From the NCBI GenBank assembly GCA_038061225.1, contig JBBTZT010000003.1, positions 1 through 58,976 of the forward strand: DNA of 58,976 nucleotides. The letters are read 5' to 3'. This DNA comes from Patescibacteria group bacterium. GTDB taxonomy: Bacteria; Patescibacteriota; Microgenomatia; UBA8517. The notes beneath the pieces are model-generated. The model was not told the origin of the DNA, did not search any database, and saw only the letters and a program-made list of their open reading frames with translations. Positions 15,474-58,976 of this stretch are shown piece by piece (the stretch's first letter is position 1; every line of letters begins with the position of its first letter). The translations under genes and the position numbers were made by a program.

Positions 15474-15492
15474 ATTTTCAGATGTGTCCTCA

Positions 15493-15540
15493 TTGAAAAT
15501 TAGAAATTGAAAATTGATTGAAAATTGTAAATTAAAAATT
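15493..15540 (+). repeat. Degenerate 7-mer tandem tract (TTGAAAA-type)
   Basis: ttgaaaa ttagaaa ttgaaaa ttga ttgaaaa ttgtaaa ttaaaaa. Confidence 0.75.
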
Positions 15541-15541
15541 C

Positions 15542-17872
15542 ATGAAGAAGATAGTTAAGACATTCAAATTAGGTGGTAAAGAAATTACATTAACCACAGG
15601 AGTATTAGCCGAACAAGCCGATAGCGCTGTTATGGCTAGAATGGGAGATACAGTAGTACTTGCTACTGTTACTTCAGCTCCACTAAAACAAGAAATGGAT
15701 TATTTCCCATTATCAGTTGAATATCAAGAGAAATTATATGCTGGTGGAAGAATAAAAGGTTCAAGATGGGTAAAAAGAGATGGAAGACCGACAGATGAAG
15801 AAATTTTAGTAGGAAGATTAATTGATAGATCCATTAGACCACTTTTTCCAAAACTATACAAAAAAGAGGTTCAAATAATAGTTGCAGTTCTTTCAGTTGA
15901 TGGTGAAAATATGCCATCAATGTTAGGTGCTATTGCCGCTTCTGCTGCAGTTCACATCTCTAACTTACCATGGAAGGGTCCTGTTGGGGTAATTAACATT
16001 GGCCTTAAAGATGAAAAATATATAATTAACCCAACCAATTCAGAGCTTTCTGAATCAGTTTTAGATTTAGTTGTTTCTTCAACTGCAAATGCAGTGGTAA
16101 TGATTGAAACAGGAGCAAAAGAAGTAAGTGAAAAGCAAGTTGTTGATGGAGTTAAAATGGCGTTTGACGAGGCACAGACTATAAACACAGCAATTGAAGA
16201 ATTTGCAAAAGAGTTGAAAGTTAAAAGAGATATCTATGAAGAAGAAAAACCATCTGCAACTTTAGAAAAAGAAGTAGAAAAATTAGTCAGTAAAGATATT
16301 TCAGAGCTTGTTAAAAACATGGCAACTCACGAGGGGTCATCTGATGTTTTTAAAGAAATGGTAACAATAGTTTCTGAGAAATTTGAAAAAGATCAAGACA
16401 AAAAATGGGTAGCAGAAATAATTGATCATCTTAAGAAAGACTATATAAGAGAACAAATACTAACAAAAGGAATAAGACCAGACGGCAGAAAATTAACAGA
16501 AATTAGAAAATTATCTTCAGAAGTAGGCTTTTTACCTAGAACTCATGGATCAGGATTATTTACTCGTGGTCAAACCCAAGTATTATCTATTGCGACACTT
16601 GGTTCCACTCAAATGGGGCAACTCTTAGAAACCGCAGAGGGTGAACAAGAAAAAAGATATATGCATCATTATTCCATGCCACCATTCACAACAGGAGAAG
16701 TTGGACGAGTTGGAAATCCAGGAAGACGTGAAATAGGTCATGGAGCATTAGCTGAAAAGGCCTTAATGCCAGTACTTCCAACTGAAGTGAATTTTCCATA
16801 TGCGATTCGCGTAGTATCTGAAGTTATGAGTTCAAATGGGTCAACTTCAATGGCTTCAGTTTGTGGTTCATCTTTGGCTTTAATGGACGCAGGAGTTCCA
16901 ATAACAGCTCCAGTATCTGGTATTGCAATGGGCTTAATTATTGAAGGCAAGGATGTTGCAATTCTTTCTGACATTATGGGAATTGAAGACTTTAATGGGG
17001 ACATGGATTTTAAGGTTGCAGGAACTGCAAAAGGAATTACAGCAATCCAGCTTGATGTTAAGACATTAAATCTAACACCTGTCATACTTGAAAAAGTATT
17101 AGAGCAGGCAAAAAATGGTCGTGCTGAGATGTTAAAAAGTGTAACAGACGCAATTAGTACTCCAAGAAAAGAAGTTTCAATTTATGCTCCAAAAATAAAA
17201 CTTGTTAAAGTTCCTGTTGATAAAATTGGTGACCTTATAGGTCCCGGTGGAAAAGCTATTAAAAAGTTAATGGCGGATACTGGAACACATATTGACGTTG
17301 AAGACGATGGAAGCGTTTCAATTTCAGGAATTGAAAAAGCAGGAATTGAAAAAGCCATTGAATATGTAGAAGGTCTTGGTAAAGAAGTAACTGCTGGCGA
17401 AATTTATGAAGGTGAAGTTGTTCGTATCATGCCATTTGGAGCTTTTGTAAATATCTTACCTGGAAAAGATGGGATGGTTCACGTTTCAGATATGGCAGAA
17501 GGGTATGTAGCGGACGCCAATGATATTGTAACCATCGGACAAAAAGTTACCGTTCGCGTTAAAGAAGTAGATGAAATGGGAAGAGTAAATCTCTCTATGA
17601 GAATGGATCCATCAACTGACAAGCCAAAAGAAGCCCACTCCGGTGGACCTTCGCGGGGCAGGGATAAGCAAAGCTTGGTCGGTTACACCGGTAGAAATTC
17701 AGGCGGTTACAATAGAAATAACAACAGATCAGATTCACGAGGTGGTGGATTTTCAGATAGAGGACGATCTTCCTTTGGAGGAAATAGGGATAGAAATTCA
17801 GCTCCAAGATCATCAGGTCCACACTTTCCAACTTCTAGATATTTCCAAACCGGAACAAATGTAGATAGATAA
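15542..17872 (+). CDS. pnp: Polyribonucleotide nucleotidyltransferase with an R/G/S/N-rich tail
   Basis: Two RNase PH domains (RTHGSGLFTRGQTQ, SNGSTSMAS, DMDFKVAG), KH and S1. Confidence 0.98.
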   Translation: MKKIVKTFKLGGKEITLTTGVLAEQADSAVMARMGDTVVLATVTSAPLKQEMDYFPLSVEYQEKLYAGGRIKGSRWVKRDGRPTDEEILVGRLIDRSIRPLFPKLYKKEVQIIVAVLSVDGENMPSMLGAIAASAAVHISNLPWKGPVGVINIGLKDEKYIINPTNSELSESVLDLVVSSTANAVVMIETGAKEVSEKQVVDGVKMAFDEAQTINTAIEEFAKELKVKRDIYEEEKPSATLEKEVEKLVSKDISELVKNMATHEGSSDVFKEMVTIVSEKFEKDQDKKWVAEIIDHLKKDYIREQILTKGIRPDGRKLTEIRKLSSEVGFLPRTHGSGLFTRGQTQVLSIATLGSTQMGQLLETAEGEQEKRYMHHYSMPPFTTGEVGRVGNPGRREIGHGALAEKALMPVLPTEVNFPYAIRVVSEVMSSNGSTSMASVCGSSLALMDAGVPITAPVSGIAMGLIIEGKDVAILSDIMGIEDFNGDMDFKVAGTAKGITAIQLDVKTLNLTPVILEKVLEQAKNGRAEMLKSVTDAISTPRKEVSIYAPKIKLVKVPVDKIGDLIGPGGKAIKKLMADTGTHIDVEDDGSVSISGIEKAGIEKAIEYVEGLGKEVTAGEIYEGEVVRIMPFGAFVNILPGKDGMVHVSDMAEGYVADANDIVTIGQKVTVRVKEVDEMGRVNLSMRMDPSTDKPKEAHSGGPSRGRDKQSLVGYTGRNSGGYNRNNNRSDSRGGGFSDRGRSSFGGNRDRNSAPRSSGPHFPTSRYFQTGTNVDR

Positions 17873-48552: not shown

Positions 48553-48917
48553 TGGTACAACTAAGATCATATTTAGTTCCCGCTGATAATTCTGGAGCTA
48601 AAAAATTAATGGTAATTGGAGTTCCTGGAAGAATTGGTAAAATTGCAACTTTAGGGGATGTAGTTTTGTGTGTTGTTAAAGGTTGTGATCCAAATGGTGC
48701 AATAAAAGATCATGAAAAAGTAAAAGTATTGATTGTAAGAACAAGAAAAGAAGTTGGTAGATTTGATGGAACTTATATCAGATTTGATGATAATGCAGGA
48801 GTAGTAATTGATAAACAGGGATTACTTTTAGGTACTCGTGTGTTAGGACCAATTGCAAGAGAAGTTAAAGAAGCAGGATTTAATAAAATAGCATCATTAT
48901 CAAGGGAAGTAGTTTAA
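48552..48917 (+). CDS. rplN: 50S ribosomal protein uL14
   Basis: ADNSGAK, IRFDDNA, GTRVLGPIARE. Confidence 0.99.
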   Translation: MVQLRSYLVPADNSGAKKLMVIGVPGRIGKIATLGDVVLCVVKGCDPNGAIKDHEKVKVLIVRTRKEVGRFDGTYIRFDDNAGVVIDKQGLLLGTRVLGPIAREVKEAGFNKIASLSREVV

Positions 48918-48969
48918 ATATAAGCGGAGCTTGTAATATAAATATAAGCGGAGCTTGTAATATAAATAT
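48916..48969 (+). repeat. 24-bp tandem duplication carrying the ATAAGC-GGA-GCTTG mini-hairpin
   Basis: aaatataagcggagcttgtaatat x2 plus a partial third unit, between rplN and rplX. Confidence 0.9.
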
Positions 48970-58058: not shown

Positions 58059-58463
58059 ATGAATCACAAAAAAAATTATATATATGCAGTTGGTAGAAGG
58101 AAAAGTTCTTCTGCTAGGGTTCGTTTATTTAAAGGTAGCGGTGAAAGTCTAATTAATAATAAAAAAATATCAGAAGTCTATGAAAACAAAACTGCATTAA
58201 TTATATTAGATAAACCATTTAAAGTTACTAATACACAGGGTAAGTATTTTTTCACAGCTAAAGTTTCAGGTGGTGGTAAAGAAGGACAAATGGAAGCAAT
58301 TATTCATGGAGTTTCAAGAGCATTGATTAAGATCAATGCAGATAAATTCCGCGTACCGCTAAAAGAAAAAAAACTTTTAACTAGAGATCCAAGAGAAAGA
58401 CAAAGAAGAATGGTTGGAACAGGTGGAAAAGCAAGACGCAAGAAACAATCGCCTAAAAGATAG
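58059..58463 (+). CDS. rpsI: 30S ribosomal protein uS9
   Basis: GRRKSSSARV, GGGKEGQ, LTRDPR...KAR..QSPKR. Confidence 0.99.
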   Translation: MNHKKNYIYAVGRRKSSSARVRLFKGSGESLINNKKISEVYENKTALIILDKPFKVTNTQGKYFFTAKVSGGGKEGQMEAIIHGVSRALIKINADKFRVPLKEKKLLTRDPRERQRRMVGTGGKARRKKQSPKR

Positions 58464-58563
58464 TAGTGCAAAACTGTCACCGATTGATGCAATTAGATAC
58501 AAATAGAACAAAACAATCACCAGCTATTTGTCTTTGGTCATTTGTCACTGATAAAATAAAACA

Positions 58564-58917
58564 ATGTATAGATTTGAAAAACTTAGAGTATATGATGATG
58601 CTTTAAATCTAGTCGAGGATATTTATAAATTGACAAAGTTAATTCCAAAAACAGAAACTTTTGCTTTAATCGACCAAATTAAGCGAGCTTCAACTTCAAT
58701 TGTTTTAAATATTGCTGAAGGTTCAGGAAGTGAAAGTGATAAAGGATTTAAAAATTTCTTAAGAATTGCATTAAAGTCGCTATATGAAACAGTTGCTTGC
58801 CTAAAACTTGTAAGTCGCTTATTTAAAATAAATACAGAAATTTATTTACAAAAATGTGAGTTAGTTGGAAGAGAACTAAATGGTTTAATTAAATCTATGT
58901 CTAAAGCTAATGGCTAA
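58564..58917 (+). CDS. Four-helix-bundle protein (23S rRNA intervening-sequence protein family)
   Basis: F..L.VY..A..L...IY.LT...P..E.F.L..QI.RA..SI..NIAEG.G....K.F..FL.IA..S..E pattern. Confidence 0.9.
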   Translation: MYRFEKLRVYDDALNLVEDIYKLTKLIPKTETFALIDQIKRASTSIVLNIAEGSGSESDKGFKNFLRIALKSLYETVACLKLVSRLFKINTEIYLQKCELVGRELNGLIKSMSKANG

Positions 58918-58950
58918 CGGCAAATGACTGTTTTGTTTTATATTGTTTTA

Positions 58951-58976
58951 CGGGGAGTAGTTTAAAAGCAGAATCC
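58951..58976 (+). tRNA. Probable tRNA 5' half, truncated by the window end (isotype unknown)
   Basis: CGGGGAG (acceptor strand), T8-A9, D-stem GTTT/GAAT around a short loop; GC-rich onset after an AT-rich spacer. Confidence 0.55.

What the first reader, a model, noticed from the sequence alone, without database searches (positions are those of the whole stretch)
58500..58945. Four-helix-bundle gene looped out by nested RNA helices between rpsI and a tRNA
Seen: 58503-58515 (ATAGAACAAAACA) pairs with 58929-58941 over 13 bp with one G.U. Inside it, 58537-58546 (GTCATTTGTC) pairs with 58919-58928 (GGCAAATGAC) over 10 bp with one wobble. A competing local hairpin (CAAATAG 58500 / CTATTTG 58524) is available before the 3' flank is made. 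Established: this protein family is known from 23S rRNA intervening sequences, which are excised from flanking stems by RNase III. Inference: an IVS-like cassette operating in an mRNA/pre-tRNA transcript, potentially a mobile unit that removes itself at the RNA level and spreads with heptamer-repeat flanks.
Basis: partly seen in the sequence, partly recalled or inferred. Interest (0 to 1): 0.78.

Follow-up and report, generated by a model that had tools for sequence, protein, structure and literature searches.

The report
IVS-like gene cassette in tRNA leader

Summary
58503-58515 pairs with 58929-58941 (13 bp) and 58537-58546 pairs with 58919-58928 (10 bp). Both mismatches are G.U. The flank duplex is -26.0 kcal/mol against -13.5±2.6 for shuffles (1 of 3000 reach it) and a best of -17.3 among 58 other genes in the window.

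The enclosed ORF (58564-58917) is a true PF05635/TIGR02436 four-helix-bundle protein.

New findings:
- Across 79 homologous loci from many phyla, none in rRNA, these genes lie between an upstream heptamer array and its reverse complement downstream (median flank z -2.4 against 0.0 for controls).
- The conserved partner is tRNA-Pro(GGG), not rpsI. In 19 of 24 orthologous loci the cassette lies between a conserved promoter-like block and the tRNA.
- The cassette is a discrete DNA unit. Close relatives carry it, lack it, or carry it inverted.

RNase III excision remains an inference, because no RNA data exist. A G.U versus A.C mismatch test (35:32) gives no sign of selection on the RNA strand specifically. 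The heptamer sequence is conserved, which suggests a sequence-specific binding partner.

Verdict: a new variant of the IVS kind, of real interest.

The parts
58059..58463 (+). rpsI (ribosomal protein S9), the last gene of the rpoA-rplQ-rplM-rpsI block. It is the upstream neighbour in this lineage only.
   Evidence: The ORF is listed. PF00380 is assigned to the identical gene in L001. tblastn finds rpsI in only 1 of 10 orthologous loci, and there on the opposite strand 1.4 kb downstream, not upstream of the cassette.
58467..58506 (+). Fossil of the 3' end of a macB/FtsX-type ABC permease gene (..AKLSPIDAIRYK*, stop TAG at 58504-58506). It remains after loss of a yknX-abc-macB operon between rpsI and the cassette.
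   Evidence: It is 81% identical over 42 nt to the intact macB 3' end of L119. The same C-terminus ends intact macB genes directly upstream of the cassette in L092/L093 and L091.
58500..58530 (+). Local hairpin CAAATAG / CTATTTG (7 bp, 17-nt loop) that competes with the outer helix.
   Evidence: Sequence read. It is present in the fold of the upstream flank alone.
58503..58515 (+). Left outer arm ATAGAACAAAACA. It begins at the fossil stop codon.
   Evidence: I3. It is conserved as ATAAAACAAAACAG / CTGTTTTGTTTTTA in L092/L093.
58527..58547 (+). Three tandem heptamers, TTTGTCT TTGGTCA TTTGTCA (clade consensus T-T-R-G-T-C-N). 58537-58546 forms the left inner arm.
   Evidence: The pattern occurs nowhere else in the window without a mismatch.
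58549..58557 (+). Extended -10-like element TGaTAAAAT, 6 nt before the ATG (with TTGTCT at 58528-58533 as a possible -35). It may be the cassette's own promoter and may give a leaderless or near-leaderless mRNA.
   Evidence: Found by the scan, which was not above the shuffle expectation. The same element lies 3-6 nt before the ATG in L092, L091 and L094. Promoter function is inferred.
58564..58917 (+). [quoted passage not shown]
   Evidence: PF05635 E 4.9e-29, 101 bits against a cut-off of 33.8. TIGR02436 99 bits against a cut-off of 24. The AF2 model has pLDDT 94 and four helices. Foldseek gives 2GSC at TM 0.84-0.88 and Avd at about 0.8.
58919..58941 (+). Right arm: inner GGCAAATGAC (58919-58928, a remnant of the reverse heptamer array) followed directly by outer TGTTTTGTTTTAT (58929-58941).
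58510..58949 (.). The cassette as a unit of presence or absence (about 440 bp, ±2). This segment is missing between the macB stop and the tRNA-like sequence in the close relative L119.
   Evidence: The BLAST junctions are. L119 RecA is 93.4% identical to the window's RecA. The inversion of the same unit in L091 relative to L092 is shown.
58951..58976 (+). The 5' part of tRNA-Pro(GGG), 72 nt in the full contig and cut by the end of the window. It starts 9 nt after the right arm.
   Evidence: ARAGORN on L001-L008. Sequence.

Best explanation
This is the non-rRNA form of the bacterial 'intervening sequence'. It is a cassette of about 440 bp carrying one PF05635 (IVS-protein / Avd-like) gene. The cassette is bounded by an inverted repeat that descends from opposed arrays of a 7-base unit (TTRGTCN upstream, its complement downstream). 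It lodges in a transcribed spacer, here the leader of tRNA-Pro(GGG), downstream of the ribosomal-protein operon.

Shown:
- the anatomy of the cassette;
- its statistical significance;
- that the same architecture surrounds family members across phyla;
- that those members sit co-oriented in spacers of tRNA, SRP RNA, tmRNA, ATP-synthase and ribosomal-protein or translation-factor genes;
- that the cassette is a discrete DNA unit that close relatives carry, lack or carry inverted.

Inferred mechanism. In transcripts that contain both arms (read-through from rpsI here; the conserved upstream promoter-like block in most orthologues), the arms pair into about 23 bp of double-stranded RNA. This loops the ORF out next to the tRNA. 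The duplex is the size RNase III cuts, so the cassette RNA is separated from the host transcript, as in 23S rRNA, while RNase P releases the tRNA. The cassette is therefore harmless to its host transcript.

The heptamer sequence is conserved over deep divergence and each protein clade has its own heptamer. This suggests that the arrays are also recognised sequence-specifically, most plausibly by the basic pentameric protein the cassette encodes.
For: The helix is real and rare: (z -4.9; none of 58 window genes reaches it).

Family membership.

Family-wide complementary flanks. 79 loci have a median z of -2.4, and 38% are below -3. 152 control ORFs have a median of 0.0, and 3% are below -3. Mann-Whitney p = 3.6e-16.

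Heptamer periodicity. Lag 7 is the best lag in 53 of 79 upstream and 45 of 79 downstream flanks. Period-7/14 arrays are about 15 times denser within 130 nt of the gene ends than elsewhere in the loci. The sequences are printed.

None of the 80 loci lies in rRNA, but stable-RNA neighbours recur: tRNA-Pro in 12 loci, tRNA-Ala plus SRP RNA, tmRNA, tRNA-Sec and another tRNA. Cassettes also lie between atpE and atpF, between atpD and atpC, and between rpsR and efp.

Orientation. The cassette is co-oriented with both neighbours in 47 loci and antisense to both in 6. Median gaps are 54 and 56 nt.

A promoter-like block lies upstream of the arrays in 19 of 24 orthologous loci.

Empty alleles. 28 cassette-less tRNA-Pro(GGG) loci carry the same block 9-62 nt before the tRNA. 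Occupied and empty pairs have 88-94% identical flanks. L119 is empty.

The cassette is inverted in place, with breakpoints in the arms.

Precedent. RNase III excises the Coxiella 23S IVS, which has heptamers before its S23p ORF (PMC4990558). The Avd pentamer binds an RNA stem-loop, and a long-range duplex flanks the DGR template (bioRxiv 10.1101/2023.10.23.563531).
Against: There is no RNA evidence at all. No RNA run holds the window or L076, and the one metatranscriptome hit shows only a cassette-less relative.

Mismatches between the arms show no excess of G.U over A.C (35:32) and are mostly transversions at the variable heptamer position. Pairing of the sense RNA is therefore not visibly the selected property.

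In the window's sub-lineage the promoter-like -10 lies downstream of the left arm, so the cassette's own transcript would lack one arm.

Several close orthologues (L012, L014, L015, L019) have no significant up/down duplex, because their forward array pairs with a second, reverse array inside the 5' UTR.

No RNase III gene is seen in the 59-kb window, although most of the genome was not examined.

The whole-cassette fold is not more stable than shuffles (z -0.4).
Confidence: 0.5

Rival explanations
1. The heptamer arrays are binding sites for a protein, most likely the encoded pentamer, on DNA or RNA, in the manner of operators or iterons. The gene is autoregulated or partitioned by its own product, and the complementarity of the flanks is only a by-product of placing the same sites in opposite orientation on either side.
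For: The heptamer sequence is conserved (T-T-R-G-T-C-N, with a variable last position) across orthologues whose proteins are only 56-70% identical, whereas a pure helix could drift. Mismatches sit at the variable positions and show no G.U bias. Each protein clade has its own heptamer class, and one Wolfebacteria genome carries two cassettes of different clades with different heptamers (L052 and L077). The protein is basic (pI 9.25). Its homologue Avd binds an RNA stem-loop as a pentamer. The arrays abut the start and stop codons.
Against: No binding data exist. In the window the downstream array has decayed to about one unit, yet complementarity is kept by a non-heptamer outer helix whose only mismatch is a G.U. 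A clade-specific heptamer could reflect common descent alone. A 7-bp period is awkward for binding to double-stranded DNA.
Confidence: 0.3
2. It is a mobile DNA element. The inverted repeat acts as terminal repeats for transposition or site-specific homing into spacers of stable-RNA genes and operons, catalysed in trans or, by an unknown activity, by the encoded protein.
For: Presence/absence polymorphism with 88-94% identical flanks occurs in three separate sub-lineages. The cassette is inverted in place. The same kind of site (atpE-atpF) is occupied by cassettes of two different protein clades. The literature proposes horizontal spread of rRNA IVSs.
Against: There is no transposase or recombinase in or beside the cassette. 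There is no target-site duplication or footprint at the junctions. There is one copy in the window. All members of the clade occupy the same tRNA-Pro(GGG) site, so vertical descent with repeated loss explains the pattern. Four metagenomes show no alternative joints. Homologous recombination between any inverted repeat would give the inversion.
Confidence: 0.15
3. [quoted passage not shown] The local hairpin and the long-range helix would be alternative states.
For: Competing local and long-range pairings exist in the window. In orthologues the order is forward array, reverse array 1, ORF, reverse array 2, which is the layout of a switch. The arrays end within a few nt of the start codon.
Against: In the window the start codon lies 17 nt beyond the inner arm and is not sequestered. 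No ligand or factor is known. The same lack of RNA-specific mismatch bias applies.
Confidence: 0.1
4. The complementarity is chance pairing of A-rich and T-rich low-complexity spacers in a genome of 33% G+C.
For: The 3' arm can pair with several A-rich upstream stretches. The genome is AT-rich.
Against: 1 of 3000 shuffles and none of 58 window genes reach the observed energy. The helix is kept, with changes, in L092/L093. The pattern is family-wide at p = 3.6e-16.
Confidence: 0.01

Closest known systems
23S rRNA intervening sequences carrying an S23p/PF05635 ORF (Leptospira, Coxiella burnetii, Brucella, Xanthomonas)
   Same: The protein family is the same. The ORF is enclosed by complementary ends that form a stem. 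Tandem heptamers precede the ORF (GACAGAT x3 in Coxiella; PMC4990558). Presence among relatives is sporadic. The element lies in a part of a stable-RNA precursor that can be removed.
   Different: This one is not in rRNA. Here it lies in the 5' leader of a tRNA, and elsewhere in mRNA spacers of operons. Excision by RNase III is shown for the rRNA IVS and is only inferred here. The protein here looks intact and conserved, with 24 invariant columns among 28 sequences, whereas the Coxiella ORF is decaying.
Avd, the accessory protein of diversity-generating retroelements, and the DGR RNA
   Same: The fold is the same basic four-helix bundle (Foldseek TM about 0.8 to 8UB8 and 4DWL). In DGR RNA a long-range duplex (13 bp on average) between sequences on either side loops out the template, and Avd binds a stem-loop.
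   Different: There is no reverse transcriptase among the called neighbours. A template/variable repeat pair was not searched for. The Avd-specific models score below their cut-offs: PF22296 20.4 against 40, and NF033474 18.2 against 80. PADLOC gives no hit.
Intergenic tandem heptamer repeats of unknown function: cyanobacterial STRR, TAACTGA repeats of Beggiatoaceae, GGGAATC-type repeats of Xanthomonas and Nostoc
   Same: These are tandem 7-nt units in intergenic DNA, often ending just before a start codon (PMC4679880). From memory, one STRR unit (Mazel 1990) is TTGGTCA, which is also a unit here.
   Different: Those repeats are dispersed genome-wide and are mostly direct repeats. Here the arrays come as an opposed pair around one gene. 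Neither paper read mentions the IVS protein family. Any link is a hypothesis.
RNase III processing stems in polycistronic transcripts (phage T7 early mRNAs, rpsO-pnp, the stems flanking 16S and 23S rRNA)
   Same: Two distant complementary segments enclose a functional RNA, forming 20 bp or more of dsRNA inside a longer transcript.
   Different: Those stems flank the host's own product. Here they flank an accessory gene that relatives can lack.
MITE-like or IS-like elements with terminal inverted repeats, and invertible DNA segments
   Same: The unit is bounded by inverted repeats, shows presence/absence polymorphism, and has undergone one in-place inversion.
   Different: There is no transposase or invertase, no target-site duplication, only one copy, and a clade-fixed location.

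Membership tests
PF05635 / TIGR02436 four-helix-bundle protein ('23S rRNA intervening sequence protein', S23p) | Match to the family HMMs above the curated cut-offs | tested here: met
   PF05635 scores 101.1 bits against a cut-off of 33.8. TIGR02436 scores 99.2 bits against a cut-off of 24.
PF05635 / TIGR02436 four-helix-bundle protein ('23S rRNA intervening sequence protein', S23p) | Up-down four-helix-bundle fold like 2GSC and 2RLD | tested here: met
   The AF2 model has pLDDT 94 and four helices. Foldseek gives 2GSC at TM 0.84-0.88 and rmsd 1.2-1.6. A profile search hits 2GSC at E 3.8e-19.
PF05635 / TIGR02436 four-helix-bundle protein ('23S rRNA intervening sequence protein', S23p) | Homopentameric ring | not testable with these tools
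   2GSC and 2RLD are each deposited with 5 chains. No oligomer was modelled here.
23S rRNA intervening sequence (IVS) | Inserted in a 23S rRNA gene (helix 25 or 45) | tested here: not met
   There is no rRNA in the window or in any of the 80 homologous loci. The element lies between rpsI and tRNA-Pro.
23S rRNA intervening sequence (IVS) | Complementary ends that form a stem enclosing the element | tested here: met
   There are 23 bp in two blocks. z is -4.9, and the stem is in both the MFE and the centroid fold.
23S rRNA intervening sequence (IVS) | Excised from the precursor by RNase III without religation | not testable with these tools
   No RNA runs hold the sequence.
23S rRNA intervening sequence (IVS) | Sporadic presence among close relatives | tested here: met
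   Empty alleles are L119, L114/L134/L149 and L193, set against occupied relatives.
Diversity-generating retroelement (Avd component) | Adjacent reverse transcriptase gene | tested here: not met
   The called neighbours are rpsI, the tRNA, a nucleotidyltransferase (PF04439), recA, recX and rny. None is a reverse transcriptase. A template/variable repeat pair, the other defining part of a DGR, was not searched for.
Diversity-generating retroelement (Avd component) | Match to the Avd-specific models | tested here: not met
   PF22296 scores 20.4 against 40. NF033474 scores 18.2 against 80.
Transposable element with terminal inverted repeats (IS / MITE) | Terminal inverted repeats | tested here: met
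   The inversion breakpoints lie in the repeats.
Transposable element with terminal inverted repeats (IS / MITE) | Target-site duplication at the junctions, or a footprint at empty sites | tested here: not met
   None is seen at the window/L119, L175/L114 or L183/L193 junctions. The empty sites hold unrelated spacers of 2-22 nt.
Transposable element with terminal inverted repeats (IS / MITE) | A transposase, or several near-identical copies per genome | tested here: not met
   There is one copy of the protein and of the heptamer pattern in 59 kb. No transposase is nearby. The rest of the genome was not examined.
Dispersed intergenic heptamer repeats (STRR / TAACTGA type) | Tandem 7-nt units in intergenic DNA | tested here: met
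   There are 3 units at 58527-58547. Their period-7 arrangement is shown for the clade: successive GTC cores are 7 nt apart in 44 of 79 intervals. Lag 7 is the best lag across the 79 homologous loci, and period-7/14 arrays are enriched at their gene ends.
Dispersed intergenic heptamer repeats (STRR / TAACTGA type) | The same unit dispersed at many loci of the genome | tested here: not met
   The unit pair occurs only here in the window. Other heptamer arrays of different sequence do exist in related loci.

The most novel reading that the evidence does not exclude
PF05635 proteins are sequence-specific binders of tandem heptamers. On this reading, 'gene plus two opposed cognate heptamer arrays' is a self-contained selfish cassette that colonises transcribed spacers of highly expressed RNAs: rRNA helices, tRNA leaders, the spacers next to SRP RNA and tmRNA, and spacers within the ATP-synthase and ribosomal-protein operons. 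The classical 23S IVS is then only its best-known landing site. The orphan intergenic heptamer arrays of cyanobacteria, Beggiatoaceae and CPR bacteria would be its footprints or its trans targets. Movement might even use an Avd-like role with a host reverse transcriptase, acting on the looped-out RNA.
Probability: 0.2. Interest if true: 0.9.

Novelty: new variant of a known kind. Interest (0 to 1): 0.72.

Why it matters
The rRNA intervening sequences and their conserved ORF have gone unexplained for more than 30 years. So have the tandem heptamer repeats of several bacterial groups.

This locus and its 79 relatives show that the IVS protein gene travels with opposed heptamer arrays wherever it sits. 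They also show that it favours transcribed spacers of stable RNAs and housekeeping operons. That turns an rRNA curiosity into a general cassette with clear parts: two arrays, one basic pentamer-type protein, and a host transcript.

Each part can be tested with ordinary experiments:
- RNase III cleavage of a transcript;
- gel shifts with cognate and non-cognate heptamers;
- reporter constructs with and without the cassette.

It also matters for annotation. In Levybacteria-type genomes, tRNA-Pro(GGG) appears to be expressed through a protein-coding leader of about 450 nt. In addition, a cassette inside the atp or ribosomal-protein operons implies processing of those mRNAs.

Tried and rejected
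- RNA evidence. No RNA run holds the window or L076. The single metatranscriptome hit for L015 showed only a cassette-less relative.
- Population-level inversion or excision. Contigs of four groundwater runs show no joints.
- Rfam. Nothing is found in the window.
- rpsI linkage. Rejected: rpsI is found in only 1 of 10 orthologous loci, and there on the opposite strand 1.4 kb downstream, not upstream.
- G.U versus A.C asymmetry, as a test of RNA against DNA constraint. The result is neutral at 35:32.
- Promoter and terminator scan. Counts are not above shuffles, and there is no terminator after rpsI.
- Wider regulon of the TTRGTC heptamer in the window. None is found.
- Heptamer arrays upstream of cassette-less tRNA-Pro genes. 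One borderline case in 112.
- Phage carriage. One viral-contig hit, with the same architecture.
- Defence-system models. No hit.
- RNase III signature in the window. None is found.
- My first promoter regex, which assumed a 17-nt spacer, missed the conserved block. It was replaced.
- One malformed paper query.
Full report
**1. The observation**

The sequence reads as described.
- ATAGAACAAAACA (58503-58515) is complementary to TGTTTTGTTTTAT (58929-58941), giving 13 bp with one G.U.
- GTCATTTGTC (58537-58546) is complementary to GGCAAATGAC (58919-58928), giving 10 bp with one G.U.
- The 3' arms are contiguous. The 5' arms are separated by 21 nt.
- A perfect 7-bp local hairpin (58500-58506 with 58524-58530) competes with the outer helix. 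It forms when the upstream flank is folded alone.

The pairing is well beyond chance.
- The duplex between the 100 nt upstream and the 33 nt downstream is -26.0 kcal/mol.
- Dinucleotide shuffles give -13.5±2.6, and 1 of 3000 reaches the observed value (z -4.9).
- The same measure on 58 other genes of this window gives a mean of -10.1 and a best of -17.3.
- Both the MFE and the centroid fold of 58464-58950 contain the closing stem.
- One caveat: the T-rich right arm has alternative A-rich partners.

**2. The gene and its neighbours**

ORF 58564-58917 (117 aa, pI 9.25) matches PF05635 (E 4.9e-29) and TIGR02436 far above their cut-offs. The AlphaFold model is a four-helix bundle with pLDDT 94. 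Its best structural matches are 2GSC and 2RLD (TM up to 0.88), followed by the DGR protein Avd at about 0.8. It is the only copy in the window.

The full contig is from Hainich groundwater, and the closest named relatives are Levybacteria. It shows this gene order: rpoA-rplQ-rplM-rpsI, then the cassette, then tRNA-Pro(GGG), then a nucleotidyltransferase that some strains lack, then recA-recX-rny. The tRNA starts at 58951, 9 nt after the right arm.

**3. The pattern in relatives**

I fetched 80 homologous loci from species-representative genomes of many phyla. These include CPR groups, Zixibacteria, Binatia, Verrucomicrobia, Bdellovibrionales, Ignavibacteria, Bacteroidota and Anaerolineales.

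Flank complementarity:
- Measured as above, the 79 usable loci have a median z of -2.4, and 38% are below -3.
- 152 control ORFs in the same loci have a median of 0.0, and 3% are below -3 (p = 3.6e-16).

Printing the flanks shows why. Almost every gene is preceded by a tandem array of a 7-nt unit and followed by the reverse complement of that array.
- Lag 7 is the best of ten lags in 53 of 79 upstream and 45 of 79 downstream flanks.
- Period-7/14 arrays are about 15 times denser within 130 nt of the gene ends than in the rest of the loci.
- The unit differs between protein clades (GTTGTAA, GGCATAT, ACAACTA, GTTCACA, CAGTTGG, TTAGTCN and others).
- One Wolfebacteria genome holds two cassettes of different clades with different units (L052 and L077).
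- In the window the upstream array is TTTGTCT TTGGTCA TTTGTCA (58527-58547). The downstream array has shrunk to GGCAAATGAC. A non-heptamer outer helix makes up the length.
- The nearest relative, L092/L093 (90% protein identity), keeps the outer helix as ATAAAACAAAACAG / CTGTTTTGTTTTTA. It also has one extra heptamer on each side, TTGGCTA and its exact complement TAGCCAA.

**4. Where the cassettes sit**

- None of the 80 loci is in rRNA.
- Twelve, all from the window's own clade, have tRNA-Pro(GGG) 11-37 nt downstream.
- Two Zixibacteria have the cassette between tRNA-Ala and SRP RNA. Others follow tmRNA or tRNA-Sec, or precede a tRNA.
- Others lie in operon spacers: atpE-atpF (two different protein clades), atpD-atpC and rpsR-efp.
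- Gaps to the neighbouring genes have medians of 54 and 56 nt.
- The cassette is co-oriented with both neighbours in 47 loci and antisense to both in 6.

The recurring theme is a transcribed spacer of a highly expressed RNA.

**5. The rpsI adjacency is secondary**

rpsI is found in only one of ten orthologous loci, and there on the opposite strand 1.4 kb downstream rather than upstream. Between rpsI and the left arm the window holds a 42-nt fossil of the 3' end of a macB/FtsX permease (AKLSPIDAIRYK*). Intact macB ends at exactly this point in L092/L093, L091 and L119. The window's lineage therefore lost a yknX-abc-macB operon.

**6. The conserved partner is the tRNA and its promoter**

In 19 of 24 loci of the clade, a conserved block T(G)nTAAAAT(A/G)CAA lies 39-112 nt upstream of the ATG, ahead of the arrays. 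It looks like an extended -10 element followed by a start region. Only arrays lie between the ORF and the tRNA.

I scanned metagenomes with the anticodon arm of this tRNA.
- Only 5 of the 104 loci with at least 500 nt upstream of the tRNA carry the cassette.
- 111 cassette-less loci have at least 80 nt upstream of the tRNA. 28 of them have the same block 9-62 nt upstream of the tRNA.
- These empty loci lack heptamer arrays.

Three occupied/empty pairs are close relatives:
- L175 and L114 share 389 nt of upstream sequence at 94% identity. The sequences part just after ...TAAAATACAAGAAGCAA.
- L176 and L149 are 88% identical upstream.
- L183 and L193 are 88% identical upstream and 86% identical downstream. 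A cassette of 433 nt in one is replaced by 22 nt in the other.

The cassette therefore occupies the 5' leader of the pre-tRNA.

**7. The window's own lineage shows every state**

All of these genomes have RecA proteins 93-95% identical to the window's RecA.
- The window has the cassette plus the tRNA.
- L092/L093 have macB, the cassette and recA, with no tRNA.
- L091 has the same cassette inverted in place. The BLAST breakpoints fall inside the two arms.
- L119 has macB, then 2 nt, then a degenerate tRNA-Pro-like sequence, with no cassette.

The missing segment corresponds to window 58510-58949, that is, arm to arm. No target-site duplication or footprint is visible.

**8. RNA or DNA?**

Evidence for an RNA role:
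- the co-orientation bias;
- the spacer locations;
- the position in the tRNA leader;
- a duplex length that suits RNase III;
- the rRNA precedent, in which RNase III excises the Coxiella IVS and GACAGAT heptamers precede the S23p ORF (PMC4990558).

Evidence against an exclusively RNA role:
- Across 48 loci the arm mismatches are 35 G.U-type, 32 A.C-type and 93 transversions, mostly at the variable unit position.
- The unit sequence itself is conserved (T-T-R-G-T-C-N), which a helix alone does not require.
- Many orthologues have a second, reverse array inside the 5' UTR that pairs locally with the forward array.
- In the window's sub-lineage the -10-like element (TGaTAAAAT, 58549-58557) lies downstream of the left arm. 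Only read-through from rpsI would make an RNA with both arms.

No RNA data could be found, and no population-level rearrangement was seen.

**9. Interpretation**

The best reading is an IVS-type cassette outside rRNA. The architecture and the DNA-level behaviour are shown. Pairing and RNase III processing in read-through RNA are inferred.

The main rival, which can coexist with this reading, is that the arrays are cognate binding sites for the encoded basic pentamer. Its homologue Avd binds an RNA stem-loop, and a long-range duplex loops out the DGR template.

**10. Novelty**

Full-text searches found the family discussed only as rRNA IVS ORFs, as structural-genomics targets or as Avd relatives. 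The papers on intergenic heptamer repeats do not mention it. The CPR rRNA-insertion study records the domain only inside rRNA genes. I did not find the opposed-heptamer architecture or the tRNA-leader and operon-spacer locations described, but the library is not exhaustive.

Noticed in passing
window 15475-15541: The spacer between rpsO (S15) and the 776-aa ORF at 15542 (likely pnp, identified by reading only) is filled with ATTGAAA-type repeats of 7-8 nt, about 7 copies, which run up to the ATG. In E. coli this spacer holds an RNase III site.
   Followed up: partly
window 48915-48969: A perfect 24-nt tandem repeat (TAAATATAAGCGGAGCTTGTAATA, 2.3 copies) fills the spacer between rplN and rplX.
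   Followed up: no
L001 10479-11285, compared with L002/L003/L005/L006: A nucleotidyltransferase gene (PF04439) directly downstream of tRNA-Pro is present in some Hainich contigs (L001, L007, L008, L009) and absent in others of the same species. This is a second indel at this tRNA.
   Followed up: no
window 58951-58976, L001 10388-10459, L119 3109-3180: tRNA-Pro(GGG) is dispensable in this lineage. It is absent in L091 and L092 and degenerate in L119 (95% identical over 66 nt, but ARAGORN rejects it).
   Followed up: partly
L070 1580-1711; L043 2241-2370; L081 4065-4153; L067 2076-2147; L072 4664-4750: These loci hold sizeable heptamer arrays with no PF05635 gene between them. Some form opposed pairs only 40-100 nt apart. 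They may be empty or decayed cassettes, or trans targets.
   Followed up: no
L052 and L077 (one Wolfebacteria genome): One genome holds two cassettes from different protein clades, each with its own heptamer type (GTTCACR and TAACTAA).
   Followed up: no
L028 and L029: In Zixibacteria the cassette lies between tRNA-Ala(CGC) and the large SRP RNA. In L029 the spacers are 62 nt and 58 nt.
   Followed up: partly
L098, L099, L101 compared with the window and L094: The cassette-tRNA module is next to recA throughout the clade. It is divergent from recA in some lineages and co-directional in others, so the module or the recA block has been inverted more than once.
   Followed up: no
L096 2380-2920 (IMG/VR contig): The single hit in viral contigs has the same layout: TGATAAC-type units upstream and GTTATCA units downstream. 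Whether the contig is truly viral was not checked.
   Followed up: no
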